Assembly: GCF_058153355.1 (NCBI RefSeq)
Contig: NZ_JBLWLY010000002.1
DNA length: 64,000 bases
Reading direction: 5' to 3' (one strand)
DNA from: a plasmid
Of the stretch, positions 3,001 through 6,000 are shown one piece after another. A program made the position numbers. How positions within the stretch are numbered: the first letter of the stretch is position 1; each line of letters begins with the position of its first letter.

Positions 3001-6000
3001 TACCAGATGTTTTGTCATATGTCCAGTTAAGAGGTCCCTGTTCGGAAGCCAGATTTACAGGAGAATCGAAATCTTCCAGCATGACCTGATTCAGGTAATC
3101 AGTTGGTATGACATCCCACCAGTTGGTTGCTCCATTGGGACCTGCATACGCTCTTAATACAGCAACAATAACCCATTTTTTTTGTAAAGCATCATAAGCA
3201 AATAAAGGCGAACCACTGTCACCCGGGGCTCCGTAGTTCGGTAATGGCCCGTTTACAGGGTTATATGTTTGCCCGGGGTTAGAAACTATTGTTGTATTAG
3301 ATATTAGAGGAATGCCGATGGTTCCGCCTGTTTTAAAAGCATATCCGCCTGCAATGCTGGTTAATTTCCCGTCCTTGTCTTTTGTGTACTGAGTACCACT
3401 GCCAATCCGATAAAAAGCAGTGTAACGCTCGGTATTTTTATAAGCATTGCTTTTGGTTCCTTCATCTGTAACTGCCGAAGGAATAACTTCGGTAACCAGT
3501 TTATTCAGACGTGGGGCATGGAAGTCAACATAAGGGTGGTTATTACGGTCAACAAGGGAATATGAGTTTTTTCCGTTTCCAAATCCAACACTCTGGTATC
3601 CACCATTATGTTTTACGCTGACGATATACTGAGGAGACACCAGCGTGGCAACTCCATTGGAGCTTACGCTGCTGAAATCGGTCACTGGAGCTTTATCCAG
3701 TCGGCCAACAAGTTTTCCATTTTTGTCATATACTGGAATATCTGTGGCACCAGGCACAAAAAGTCCTTTATTTTCTGCAAAATCCCGGTAAATCTGATAG
3801 GAGATATCTGAACGAACAATACCAGCCTCTGATATCGCCGGATATAACAAACAGAGAGCAGGAGCAGCGATTAATGATATTTTTAACTTTAGCTCTGTTT
3901 TTTTTATTATGCGACTGGCAAGCTCAGATACGGCAATAAGCCCTCCTGTAGCAGGGCAATACTTAAGGGAATAGATTTTGTTCACAACAAGTTCTCCATA
4001 CTATTCACAGATACAATGAATGCACAAATAAAAACAGTGATAACATCTAGTTATCACAAAGGAAGTGTTGAACGCTGATATGTCATTATCATCTTAGAGT
4101 ACTTGACATGCTGTTATTTTGTAATGATCCCATATATGGAAGATAAATTCTGTGAGGAGGTTTTTAATTTTCTATACAAAACTGATCTGAGGTGTACTGG
4201 CAATAGCGGACACCACCATTTGTTCTTTTTCTAAGCAGTCATCTGATAATATTTTATCCTGAAGGCTGCCGGGGAGATATTCCCCAGACGAGAGTGACGA
4301 CGCTGACGATTGTAGAAAATCTCAATGTATTCCCGTATTACTGAGATGGCTTCATCCCGGCTCTTAAAACGATAGTGGCTCAGGCTTTCATTTTTCAGCG
4401 TTCCCCAGAAGCTTTCCATCGGAGCGTTGTCGTAACAGTTACCTTTACGCGACATTGATGTTTTCAGACCAGACTGCTCCTGTATGACCCGGTAATCGTA
4501 TGCGCAGTACTGTGAACCTCGCTCGGAGTGGTGGATTAGCCCGGCAGGTGGGCGCTGGCTCCTGAGCGCCATAAACAGGGCTTTACCCGTCAACTCTTTC
4601 GTCATGCGCTCTCCCGTGGCGTAACCGACAATTTCGCACGTATAAACATCTTTGACGCCGGCGAGATACAGCCATCCTTTCCGGGTGGCAACATACGTTA
4701 TATCTGCGACCCAGACCTGATTAGGTGCTGTGGGCGTAAAGTTCTGATTCAGCAGATTCGGCGTAACCGGCAGATTGTGGTCAGAGTTTGTGGTCGCCCT
4801 GAACTTGCGTTTCTGCTTACAGTGCAGCCTCAGCTCCTTACGAAGACGTGCCAGTCTGTCACGACCGACGATAATTCCGTTATCTGCCAGCTCCGTCTGG
4901 AGCCGCCGGGTTCCATATGTTTCGCGAGTGCGGATATGTGCCACCTTAATCTCCAGTTTTAGCCGCTCATCACTTTGTTTTCTGTCTGAGGGGGCATGCT
5001 GTACCCAGTCGTAATAACCGCTCCTGGATACACCAGGTACCCGACACATCGCTTCAACAGGGAATTGTTGTCGCCATTGTTCGACTAACGCGTATTTTTC
5101 AGCGACTCCCGGGCAAAATACGCTGTTGCTTTTTTTAATATATCTCGCTCAAGTCGTGCTTCATTTAAAGCCTTACGCAGTTGCATAACTTCCAGCCACT
5201 GTGCGGGAGCCAGGTGTATTGAGCCCTTTTCTTGCGGCGGTAACCCATTGTCCTAAAGTGCCTTCAGGAACAGATAATCGGGAAGCGCCTTCACTGAGCG
5301 AAAGCTGATTTTCAGGAACCGTTTTGACGGCTTCGGCTTTAAACTCCGTAGAGTAACGTTGGGTTTTTCTGCTCATTATTGGCTCCTTCTGATGCCATTC
5401 TATTTCAGGAAGGAGTGTCCGTTAAACTCAGGCTACCTCACGCTTCAGGCGGGCATTTTCAGCGGCCAGTTCACTTTCACGCTCAGACGAGGTCATCTGT
5501 TGCTGCAGTTTGCTGCGCCACGCATAGAGCTGAGATTCATACAGGCTGAGTTCACGGGCTGCGGCAGCAACACCGATGCGTTCAGCAAGCTTCAGGGCTT
5601 CACTGCGAAATTCAGGCGAATGCTGTTTACGTGTTTTTTTGCTGGTTGATACTGTTTTTGTCATGTGAGTCACCTCTGACTGAGAATTTACTCACTTAGC
5701 CGCGTGTCCACTATTGCTGGGTAAGATCAATTTGCTCACTGGTATTTACTACGTGCATCGAATGAGTGATCAAGAGCCGTATGACGCGAGAGTGTCACGT
5801 ACGGTTCCGTGAGCAGCCGGAGAGTGAAACTCTCTCCGGCTGACTCGACTCGCAGGTTCCGACAGCGGTGATGAACATGCAGCGGTGTTGTTCTCGCTGA
5901 TCGGCACATGCCGTCTGAACAATGTGGAGCCAGAAAAATGGCTGCGTTACGTTATTGAATATATCCAGGACTGACCGGCAAACCGGGTACGCGATCTGTT

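What the first reader, a model, noticed from the sequence alone, without database searches (positions are those of the whole stretch)
4188..5727. A 1.54-kb composite (IS600 inserted in the first 287 bp of IS3) is present twice with different flanks
4188-5727 and 52367-53906 are identical units in the same orientation: complete IS600 plus the IS3 left terminus and orfA N-terminus, with the same IS600 insertion point inside IS3 orfA. On the IS600-distal side both lack the rest of IS3 and carry unrelated flanks. The IS600-in-IS3 junction was therefore created once and then copied or mobilised as a unit.
Basis: seen in the sequence. Interest (0 to 1): 0.4.

Follow-up and report, generated by a model that had tools for sequence, protein, structure and literature searches.

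The report
Duplicated IS600–IS3H insertion-sequence scar
Two near-identical 1.5-kb pieces of dead mobile DNA (a crippled IS600 fused to the first 289 bases of an IS3H element) lie 48 kb apart on a Shigella-type virulence plasmid; they share one origin, but nothing shows that they jumped as a unit, so this is ordinary insertion-sequence wreckage.

Summary
The repeat is real, but it was described slightly wrongly. The shared unit is 4188-5729 and 52367-53908: 1,542 bp, same orientation, 2 mismatches. Both mismatches lie in the IS3 part.

- **IS600 part.** The "complete IS600" is 1,253 bp. It has perfect ends but an 11-bp deletion in orfA. OrfA stops at codon 67, before the frameshift site, so the copy cannot make its own transposase. 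All six IS600 copies in the window share this deletion, and no PLSDB plasmid has it.
- **IS3 part.** It is bases 1-289 of IS3H. Copy A sits exactly where more than 130 pINV plasmids carry an IS3H left end. In S. sonnei pSS_046 the IS3H at that site is complete, so copy A's outer junction is ancestral.
- **Copy B.** It abuts the last 18 nt of a phoN1-like gene.
- **Junction.** The IS600|IS3H(289) junction is identical in both copies. It is absent from 72,556 plasmids, 5,426 E. coli genomes, the GTDB representatives and JGI metagenomes. Other pINVs have IS600 in or next to IS3H at other positions. A single origin is well supported.
- **Mobilisation.** It is not shown. Neither copy has a 3-bp target duplication, and the flanks are not contiguous.

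My preferred explanation is homology-driven recombination or gene conversion among the plasmid's many IS copies. Hybrid-end transposition in trans remains possible (about 0.25). Interest is low.

The parts
4188..5440 (-). Copy A, IS600 part. It is 1,253 bp with both terminal inverted repeats intact. It carries an 11-bp deletion in orfA (scar between 5192 and 5193). orfA' is 5376-5173 (67 aa), orfB is 5049-4231 (272 aa) and the A7G slippery site is near 5138.
   Evidence: It is 98.3% identical to the 1,264-bp IS600 of S. sonnei pSS_046. OrfB matches the IS3-family transposase model at E=1.7e-97.
5441..5729 (-). Copy A, IS3H left end (element positions 289 to 1): left inverted repeat plus the first 75 codons of orfA. 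It has a private A at 5686.
   Evidence: The fragment plus its right flank is collinear (98.9% over 660 bp) with the complete IS3H and its flank in S. sonnei pSS_046.
5428..5673 (-). Chimeric 81-codon ORF: IS3H OrfA N-terminus running 3 codons into IS600. The same ORF occurs at 53607-53852 in copy B.
5730..6062 (.). Right flank of copy A: an ISCro1 (IS66-family) fragment followed by ipgB2 (6236-6811). This is the ancestral pINV neighbour of the IS3H left end.
   Evidence: (inverted repeat with 12358-12690).
52367..53619 (-). Copy B, IS600 part. It is 100% identical to copy A's IS600 and has the same 11-bp deletion (scar between 53371 and 53372).
53620..53908 (-). Copy B, IS3H left end (positions 289 to 1). 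It has a private T at 53831.
   Evidence: The junction with the right flank and both B alleles are reproduced in contig DAXYJU010000140.1 of GCA_043012465.1.
52265..52366 (-). Immediate left flank of copy B: a 102-bp internal fragment of an IS110-family transposase gene.
   Evidence: Pfam Transposase_20, E=1.8e-7. It has no other copy in the window.
52181..52264 (-). An 84-bp IS3H right-end relic (right inverted repeat) in the same orientation as the unit's IS3H fragment. It may be a remnant of a once-complete IS3H at locus B, or it may be a coincidence.
   Evidence: Similar relics lie at 7446-7577, 34804-34988 and 31395-31430.
53909..53969 (+). Right flank of copy B: the last 18 nt of a phoN1-like acid-phosphatase coding sequence plus about 40 bp downstream. 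IS200/IS605-family relics follow, then a ParDE and ParAB module.
   Evidence: (95% to the phoN1 3' end of S. flexneri 89-141 pINV).
3983..4187 (.). Left flank of copy A: the roughly 205-bp upstream region of a Pic-like serine-protease autotransporter gene. The gene is on the minus strand, starts with GTG near 3983 and runs off the left end of the window.

Best explanation
The two units are descendants of one historical junction between an IS600 left end and position 289 of an IS3H element.

They are inert scars, not a working element. The IS600 part cannot make OrfAB transposase because of the 11-bp deletion in orfA. The IS3H part retains only the left inverted repeat and 75 codons of orfA.

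The junction most likely formed in, or was recombined onto, the IS3H that every pINV carries next to ipgB2 (locus A). A second IS3H left end had been placed by transposition in the 3' end of phoN1 (locus B).

The IS600-bearing allele was then copied between the two IS3H loci by homologous recombination or gene conversion. At both loci the IS600-distal part of IS3H was removed, and the left flank replaced, by recombination with other identical IS600 copies or by IS600-adjacent deletion.

Shown: the anatomy, the single breakpoint, the ancestral status of A's right junction, the absence of target duplications, the defective transposase genes, and the rarity of the junction.

Inferred: the order of events and the recombinational route.
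For: - Identical breakpoint and 99.87% identity over 1,542 bp.
- Copy A's IS3H|flank junction is shared with S. sonnei pSS_046. There the IS3H is complete (1,261 bp). The same flank, preceded by the IS3H terminal bases, occurs at 99% identity or better in 134 PLSDB plasmids.
- Neither unit has a 3-bp duplication, and none of the four full IS600 copies in the window has one. IS600 flanks in this plasmid have evidently been exchanged repeatedly.
- All IS600 copies (4 full, 2 partial) carry the same 11-bp deletion. The four full copies and the 616-bp partial are 100% identical to one another, and the other partial is identical over its first 285 bp.
- One of these copies (24309) occupies an IS600 site shared at 99.6% with many pINVs. 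The EIEC copy at that site still has the 11 bp. This fits sequence homogenisation or recombination among copies, although the deletion could instead have arisen in that copy.
- Both mismatches fall in the 289-bp IS3H part, within its outermost 78 bp (P=0.035 for both falling in IS3H; 0.07 for both falling in the outer 78 of 289). This fits a conversion tract covering IS600 and the adjacent IS3H sequence but not the outer end.
- IS600 x IS600 and other IS x IS exchanges deleting pINV segments have been observed experimentally (PMC5629016, read).
- IS3-family transposition needs OrfAB made by -1 frameshifting (PMC3299598), and this IS600 cannot make it.
Against: - The route needs about five events, one more than hybrid-end transposition needs.
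- No intermediate was found, such as a complete IS3H::IS600 or a complete IS3H in phoN1. The lineage is represented only by this window and by short draft contigs.
- The remainder of IS3H (290-1177) is nowhere in the window.
- The 84-bp IS3H right-end relic near B is separated from IS600 by an IS110-family fragment that no simple scenario explains.
- Its outer flank (GAA) does not match B's right flank (CTA) as a target duplication.
Confidence: 0.5

Rival explanations
1. Hybrid-end transposition. After the junction formed at locus A, a transposase supplied in trans used the IS600 right end and the IS3H left end as the two termini. The source would be an intact IS600 or IS3H elsewhere in the cell. 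It copied the 1,542-bp unit into the 3' end of phoN1 (locus B). Later IS600 x IS600 exchanges replaced the left flanks and erased the target duplication.
For: - Both copies end exactly at the terminal nucleotide of an inverted repeat on each side.
- The unit's two outer termini match at 18 of 27 positions. That equals IS600's own pair (18/27) and is close to IS3H's pair (19/27). The match includes the block GCAATAG-GGACAC.
- The deletion-bearing IS600 occupies several sites, which is compatible with mobilisation in trans in this lineage.
- This route needs one event fewer than the recombination route.
Against: - The direct prediction fails at both loci: ATC vs ATT and GGT vs CTA, with no cross-matches.
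- Copy B's flanks (an IS110-family fragment and the phoN1 3' end) are not halves of one target.
- No third copy exists in the window, and no copy exists in any database searched.
- From my own knowledge, not tested here: IS3-family transposases act preferentially in cis.
- IS600's own left end lies intact inside the unit and would compete for the transposase.
Confidence: 0.27
2. Two independent IS600 insertions occurred at the same position and in the same orientation in two separate IS3H copies (a target hot spot). Each was followed by independent loss of the rest of IS3H.
For: - IS600 ends in this window repeatedly lie in or next to IS3-family termini. One IS600 sits after a 21-bp remnant of the IS600 left inverted repeat at 42434-42454, and another lies 11 bp from an IS3-type right-end relic at 31395-31430.
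- IS600 has entered IS3H more than once in pINV history.
Against: - The region around IS3H position 289 is not an outstanding match to either IS600 end. It scores 15 of 29, one of many sites at that score, against a maximum of 16 elsewhere.
- The other IS600/IS3H associations are at positions 378 (via IS1) and 700, and one is inverted.
- The junction is absent from about 140 Shigella pINV records and from thousands of E. coli genomes that hold both elements.
- This explanation also needs two identical secondary losses.
Confidence: 0.03
3. The junction was not made by an insertion into IS3H at all. It arose by an IS600-end-adjacent deletion from an older arrangement. One such arrangement lies downstream of spa40 in many pINVs: IS600, then an IS1 fragment, then IS3H 378 to 1. 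The product was then spread to loci A and B by crossovers within IS3H and IS600. This concerns the origin of the junction only, and it is compatible with either copying route.
For: - In EIEC, S. boydii, S. dysenteriae and some S. flexneri pINVs, an IS600 lies beside an IS3H left-end fragment in the same relative orientation as here. The two are separated by 441 bp, made of an IS1 fragment followed by IS3H 290-378.
- No target duplication of IS600 within IS3H can be shown, because the other half of IS3H is missing.
Against: - The IS600 at that locus is truncated by 166 bp at its right end, whereas the unit's IS600 has both ends.
- The flank of the IS3H left end there differs from both A and B.
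- The spa40 region of the source plasmid lies outside the window, so this cannot be checked.
Confidence: 0.15
4. The second copy is an assembly artefact: a repeat placed wrongly in the assembly.
For: The IS600 parts are 100% identical, and repeats of this kind are classic mis-assembly sites.
Against: - The two IS3H parts differ at two positions.
- Copy A's right junction is the conserved pINV one.
- Independent short-read assemblies contain copy B's left flank ending at the IS600 boundary. They also contain copy B's IS3H-fragment|phoN1-relic junction with the B alleles.
Confidence: 0.02

Closest known systems
IS600 (IS3 family; 1,264 bp; Shigella/EIEC)
   Same: It has identical terminal sequences and 98.3% identity to the S. 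sonnei pSS_046 copies. It has the orfA/orfB layout with an A7G slippery site, and OrfB matches the IS3-family transposase model.
   Different: It is 1,253 bp. An 11-bp deletion stops OrfA at 67 aa before the frameshift site, so OrfAB cannot be made. The deletion is present in all six copies in the window and in no PLSDB plasmid. No copy has the 3-bp target duplication.
IS3H (IS3 isoform or close relative of Shigella pINV; 1,261 bp in pSS_046)
   Same: The left inverted repeat and first 289 bp are 99.65% identical. Copy A occupies the same site beside the ISCro1 fragment and ipgB2.
   Different: Only positions 1-289 remain. Positions 290-1177 are absent from the window. Identity to a classical E. 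coli chromosomal IS3 is only about 92%.
IS-by-IS homologous recombination that reshapes pINV (Pilla et al. 2017, PMC5629016)
   Same: Multiple identical IS copies on pINV act as recombination substrates. An IS600 pair was seen to delete the intervening DNA. Here, flank exchange without target duplications is seen at every IS600 copy.
   Different: That study documented deletions and chromosomal integration. It did not document duplication of a nested-IS scar, and the events here are inferred rather than observed.
Nested or adjacent IS600/IS3H arrangements in other pINVs (spa40-side locus)
   Same: IS600 lies beside or inside an IS3H left-end fragment.
   Different: The breakpoints differ (IS3H 378 via IS1; IS3H 700 with an inverted IS600), the flank differs, and the IS600 is truncated.
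Non-autonomous or chimeric IS derivatives mobilised in trans through surrogate ends (a concept from my own knowledge of IS911 and IS3-family work; not tested here)
   Same: The two outer termini are inverted repeats as alike as a natural IS3-family pair (18/27), and the unit has no transposase of its own.
   Different: There is no target duplication, no empty-site pair and no third copy. Mobility is unproven.

Membership tests
IS600 (IS3 family) | IS600 terminal inverted repeats at both ends (TGAGGTAGCC... / ...CAGTACACCTCA) | tested here: met
   the left-end sequence aligns without a mismatch to the S. sonnei reference copy, and the E. coli copy carries the same terminal repeats. The termini are the same in all four full copies.
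IS600 (IS3 family) | At least 95% nucleotide identity to a reference IS600 over its full length | tested here: met
   98.3% identity to S. sonnei pSS_046 copies, with the 11-bp gap included. Identity is 92% to the E. coli/S. flexneri copies that PGAP labels 'IS600 family'.
IS600 (IS3 family) | Intact orfA and orfB allowing OrfAB transposase by -1 frameshifting | tested here: not met
   The 11-bp deletion stops OrfA at codon 67, upstream of the A7G site. orfB is intact (272 aa; IS3-family model E=1.7e-97). This is a defective derivative, not an autonomous IS600.
IS600 (IS3 family) | 3-bp target-site duplication | tested here: not met
   In IS orientation the flanks are GCG/GAT, GCG/ACC, ATC/GCC and TTA/CTG for the four full copies.
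IS3H / IS3 | IS3H left inverted repeat and orfA 5' region | tested here: met
   One mismatch in 289 bp for each copy against the element annotated IS3H family in pSS_046. The ORF matches the N-terminus of the IS3-family model, and Pfam HTH_Tnp_1 is recorded on the draft-contig gene.
IS3H / IS3 | Complete element with both inverted repeats and orfAB | tested here: not met
   Only positions 1-289 are present in each unit. Positions 290-1177 are absent from the window.
Mobile composite or hybrid element (the unit moving as one piece) | Inverted-repeat termini at both outer ends | tested here: met
   IS600 right end against IS3H left end: 18 of 27 positions identical, the same as IS600's own pair.
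Mobile composite or hybrid element (the unit moving as one piece) | Target-site duplication flanking each copy | tested here: not met
   A: ATC|unit|ATT. B: GGT|unit|CTA. No cross-matches.
Mobile composite or hybrid element (the unit moving as one piece) | The flanks of a copy are the two halves of one uninterrupted target | tested here: not met
   A: the upstream region of the Pic-like gene on one side and the ancestral IS3H neighbour on the other. B: an IS110-family fragment on one side and the phoN1 3' end on the other.
Mobile composite or hybrid element (the unit moving as one piece) | A transposase able to act on both ends, and demonstrated movement | not testable with these tools
   None is encoded in cis. 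A trans source and cross-recognition of the IS3H left end would need an experiment.

The most novel reading that the evidence does not exclude
The 1,542-bp unit is a new chimeric, non-autonomous insertion sequence. Its ends are the IS600 right end and the IS3H left end, which are as alike as a natural IS3-family pair. A transposase supplied in trans moved it into phoN1, and the target duplication was later erased by IS600 x IS600 exchange.
Probability: 0.25. Interest if true: 0.4.

Novelty: new member of a known kind. Interest (0 to 1): 0.15.

Why it matters
It matters little beyond bookkeeping.

- The pair is a 1.5-kb direct repeat 48 kb apart on a virulence plasmid. It brackets ipgB2, ospF, an omptin, ospZ, an ipaH gene and ospG. 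It is therefore a ready substrate for RecA-mediated deletion or duplication of that effector block, the kind of IS-driven instability already documented for pINV.
- The junction is so far unique to this lineage, so it could serve as a lineage marker.
- The 11-bp-deleted IS600 is present in six copies although it cannot make its transposase. It is a small natural case of either trans-mobilisation or concerted evolution of IS copies.
- If the unit could be shown to transpose, it would be an example of a new IS born from two fragments. The evidence here does not show that.

Tried and rejected
1. **Cointegrate idea.** I considered that the two direct copies mark the fusion of a pINV with a foreign plasmid. 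Copy A's left flank (a novel Pic-like gene) and copy B's right flank (ParDE/ParAB, absent from Shigella pINVs) looked foreign. I rejected the idea for three reasons. The region beyond B is ordinary pINV, with ipaH-ospE2-virF at 98.5%. The first 61 bp of B's right flank are a pINV phoN1 relic. The split target duplications expected of a replicative cointegrate are absent.
2. **Synteny of B's left side with the S. sonnei IS3H locus.** An IS21 lies to the left of IS3H in both. The only shared sequence is the multicopy IS21 itself, and the flanks of the IS3H right end differ, so this is not evidence.
3. **Search for the reciprocal product.** I looked for the rest of IS3H, or for phoN1, next to another IS600 right end. 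Neither is in the window.
4. **Hot-spot test** for an IS600-end-like sequence at IS3H position 289. Nothing distinctive was found.
5. **Exact-protein look-ups.** The junction-spanning ORF and the ParA of the window are not on record.
6. **Exact junction pattern** in GTDB representatives and JGI metagenomes: zero hits.
7. **S. flexneri hits** that seemed to join IS600 to the ISCro1 flank or to ospG. These turned out to be different loci.
8. **Read-through from IS600 into the Pic-like gene.** No promoter signal was found, and a terminator-like hairpin lies between them. I did not pursue this.
9. **Source of the window.** It could not be identified. No PLSDB or RefSeq complete E. coli record covers either locus.
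Full report
**Observation**

Aligning the two regions with 200-bp flanks, followed by a base-by-base walk, shows a shared block of 1,542 bp at 4188-5729 and 52367-53908, in the same orientation. There are two mismatches, at 5652/53831 (C/T) and 5686/53865 (A/G). Similarity stops abruptly at both borders. A whole-window repeat scan finds no third copy of the IS3-derived part. It does find two more full IS600 copies (24309-25561 and 58345-59597, both on the plus strand) and two partial ones (42455-43070, and from 31442).

**Context**

The window is a pINV-type virulence plasmid.
- It carries ipgB2 with its conserved neighbourhood at 99.4% identity to many pINVs.
- It carries ospG, ospF, an omptin, an NleE/OspZ-family effector and ipaH genes.
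- It carries ipaH-ospE2-virF at 98.5% identity.
- No PLSDB plasmid and no complete RefSeq E. coli genome covers either locus.
- Only short contigs of a few draft or read-derived assemblies match exactly: GCA_015332025.1, GCA_043012465.1, SRR31441161 and SRR8656992.
- Those contigs independently reproduce copy B's left flank up to the IS600 boundary. They also reproduce the junction of copy B's IS3 fragment with its right flank, including both B-specific bases. An assembly artefact is therefore very unlikely.

**The IS600 part**

The IS600 part is 4188-5440 and 52367-53619, on the minus strand. Its termini are those of IS600, and it is 98.3% identical to the 1,264-bp copies of S. sonnei pSS_046. 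It is only 1,253 bp long.

A three-way alignment with a S. sonnei copy and an E. coli copy shows an 11-bp deletion (AGCTGGAATCT) at IS positions 249-259. The deletion shifts orfA into a stop after 67 codons. That stop lies about 50 nt upstream of the A7G slippery site. In the IS3 family the active transposase is the OrfAB fusion made by -1 frameshifting at that site (PMC3299598), so these copies are non-autonomous. orfB itself is intact and matches the IS3-family transposase model.

All six IS600 copies in the window share the deletion. The four full copies and the 616-bp partial copy are 100% identical, and the other partial is identical over its first 285 bp. A 100-bp probe across the scar finds only undeleted versions in PLSDB. 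None of the four full copies has a 3-bp target duplication.

**The IS3 part**

The IS3 part is 5441-5729 and 53620-53908, on the minus strand. It consists of positions 1-289 of an IS3H-type element. Each copy differs at one base from the complete 1,261-bp element annotated 'IS3-like element IS3H family' in pSS_046. Identity to an E. coli chromosomal IS3 is about 92%. Each of the two mismatches between A and B is private to one copy when compared with three other sequences. The fragment holds the left inverted repeat and 75 codons of orfA, which run 3 codons into IS600.

**Flanks of copy A**

To the right, the IS3H terminus joins ATTTGCTC..., an ISCro1 fragment followed by ipgB2. This junction is the same, base for base, as that of the complete IS3H in pSS_046. 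The same flank, preceded by the IS3H terminal bases, is present at 99% identity or better in 134 plasmids. Copy A's outer IS3H junction is therefore ancestral to pINV, and it was not made by insertion of the unit.

To the left, the IS600 right end lies about 205 bp upstream of a serine-protease autotransporter gene. That gene is only about 82% identical to pic or other S6-peptidase genes, and it is not found in Shigella pINVs.

**Flanks of copy B**

To the right, the IS3H terminus joins the last 18 nt of a phoN1-like coding sequence plus about 40 bp downstream. This stretch is 95% identical to S. flexneri 89-141 pINV. IS200/IS605-family relics follow. Next comes a ParDE toxin-antitoxin and ParAB partition module. 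The toxin-antitoxin part is 90-96% identical to E. coli and Salmonella plasmids and does not match Shigella pINVs.

To the left, IS600 abuts a 102-bp internal fragment of an IS110-family transposase gene. That fragment is preceded by an 84-bp IS3H right-end relic in the same orientation as the unit's IS3H part. Similar right-end relics occur at three other places in the window. The outer flank of this relic (GAA) does not pair with CTA. Its relation to copy B is therefore uncertain.

**Was the junction made once?**

Yes, very probably.
- The breakpoint is identical in both copies.
- The surrounding IS3H sequence is no better a match to the IS600 ends than many other sites in IS3H: 15 of 29 positions, against a maximum of 16 elsewhere.
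- Other pINVs associate IS600 with IS3H differently. Downstream of spa40 in an EIEC O121 pINV, IS3H 1-378 is followed by an IS1 fragment and then by a right-end-truncated IS600. In S. dysenteriae ATCC 12039, IS3H 1-700 is followed by an inverted IS600.
- The direct junction is contiguous in none of 72,556 plasmids and none of 5,426 complete E. coli genomes.
- An exact 34-mer spanning it is absent from 100,044 species-representative genomes and from JGI metagenome contigs.

Whether the junction arose by insertion into IS3H or by a deletion adjacent to the IS600 end cannot be decided. The other half of IS3H, and therefore any target duplication, is missing.

**Was it mobilised as a unit?**

This is not shown.
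- In favour: both borders coincide with element termini. The two outer termini match at 18 of 27 positions, which equals IS600's own pair.
- Against: the diagnostic 3-bp duplication is absent at both loci and in all cross-combinations. The flanks of each copy are unrelated to each other. A's right junction pre-dates the unit. The unit has no transposase.

The alternative uses only processes documented on pINV, where IS x IS recombination includes an IS600 pair deleting intervening DNA (PMC5629016). Under it:
1. An IS3H left end was placed in phoN1 by ordinary IS3H transposition.
2. The IS600-bearing allele passed between the two IS3H loci by gene conversion.
3. Crossovers with other identical IS600 copies then removed the distal IS3H part and replaced the left flanks.

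Three observations fit this.
- Every IS600 copy has lost its duplication.
- A deleted copy sits at an IS600 site that is ancestral to pINV, where an EIEC plasmid keeps the 11 bp.
- Both mismatches lie in the outermost 78 bp of the IS3H part, while 1,464 bp including all of IS600 are identical (P of about 0.035 to 0.07).

None of these is decisive, and the recombination route costs one more event than hybrid transposition. I put the recombination route at about 0.5, hybrid-end transposition in trans at about 0.27, and independent insertions or an artefact at a few per cent each.

**Comparison with what is known, and verdict**

Nested, truncated and rearranged insertion sequences make up a large share of every pINV, and IS-mediated plasticity of pINV is well described (PMC5629016, PMC7373316). 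This is a lineage-specific example of that kind: a new junction rather than a new phenomenon. Its practical meaning is that a 1.5-kb direct repeat brackets 46.6 kb of effector genes and can mediate their deletion or duplication. Interest is low. The only reading that would raise it, a chimeric IS that transposes, failed the one sequence test available.

Noticed in passing
window 4188-5440, 24309-25561, 52367-53619, 58345-59597, 42455-43070, 31442-31725: Every IS600 copy in the window, four full and two partial, carries the same 11-bp orfA deletion that prevents OrfAB synthesis. The four full copies and the 616-bp partial are 100% identical. No PLSDB plasmid has the deletion. A non-autonomous IS600 has therefore either been amplified in trans or spread by gene conversion.
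   Followed up: partly
window 24309-25561 and 58345-59597 (and both composite copies): None of the four full IS600 copies is flanked by a 3-bp target duplication, and no pair of flanks matches. This implies repeated IS600-mediated flank exchange. The left junction of the 24309 copy is an ancestral pINV site (99.6% identical in many Shigella/EIEC plasmids). In EIEC pCFSAN029787_01 the IS600 at that site keeps the 11 bp and is truncated at position 750.
   Followed up: partly
window 42434-42480: A 21-bp remnant of the IS600 left inverted repeat is followed immediately by a second IS600 starting at 42455. That second copy is itself cut off at 43070 next to an IS21-family element. This is IS600 nested in the end of another IS600.
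   Followed up: no
window 1-3983 (minus strand), flank to 4187: A serine-protease autotransporter gene of at least 1,327 codons, with a GTG start near 3983, runs off the left end of the window. It is only about 82% identical to pic or other S6-peptidase genes and is absent from Shigella pINVs in PLSDB. An EAEC pAA plasmid (NZ_LT719075.1) has a related gene with an IS600 right end about 145 bp upstream, in the same orientation but with a different flank.
   Followed up: partly
window 53909-59597: A ParDE toxin-antitoxin, ParA/ParB and two small ORFs (about 54.4-58.2 kb) match no Shigella pINV in the searches run. The ParDE part is 88-96% identical to E. coli and Salmonella plasmids. The module is bracketed by inverted IS600 copies (composite B on the left, 58345-59597 on the right) without a shared target duplication. 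A serine recombinase gene follows at 59866-60426.
   Followed up: partly
window 53909-53969: Only the last 18 nt of a phoN1-like acid-phosphatase gene and its downstream hairpin region remain. The rest of that gene is absent from the window. A more divergent PhoC-like gene lies at 29264-30004.
   Followed up: partly
window 7446-7577, 10026-10689, 31395-31430, 34804-34988, 52181-52264: Five solitary right-end relics of IS3H or close IS3-family relatives, all in the same orientation. The one at 7446-7577 is conserved with S. sonnei pINV.
   Followed up: partly
window 12651-13883 (minus strand): An intact-looking group II intron reverse transcriptase/maturase ORF (410 aa, TIGR04416 E=6e-118) lies next to IS66/ISCro1-family genes.
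   Followed up: no
window 46333-47226 and 60510-61403: An 894-bp inverted repeat at 99% identity corresponds to the conserved C-terminal region of two ipaH genes. It is another substrate for inversion.
   Followed up: no
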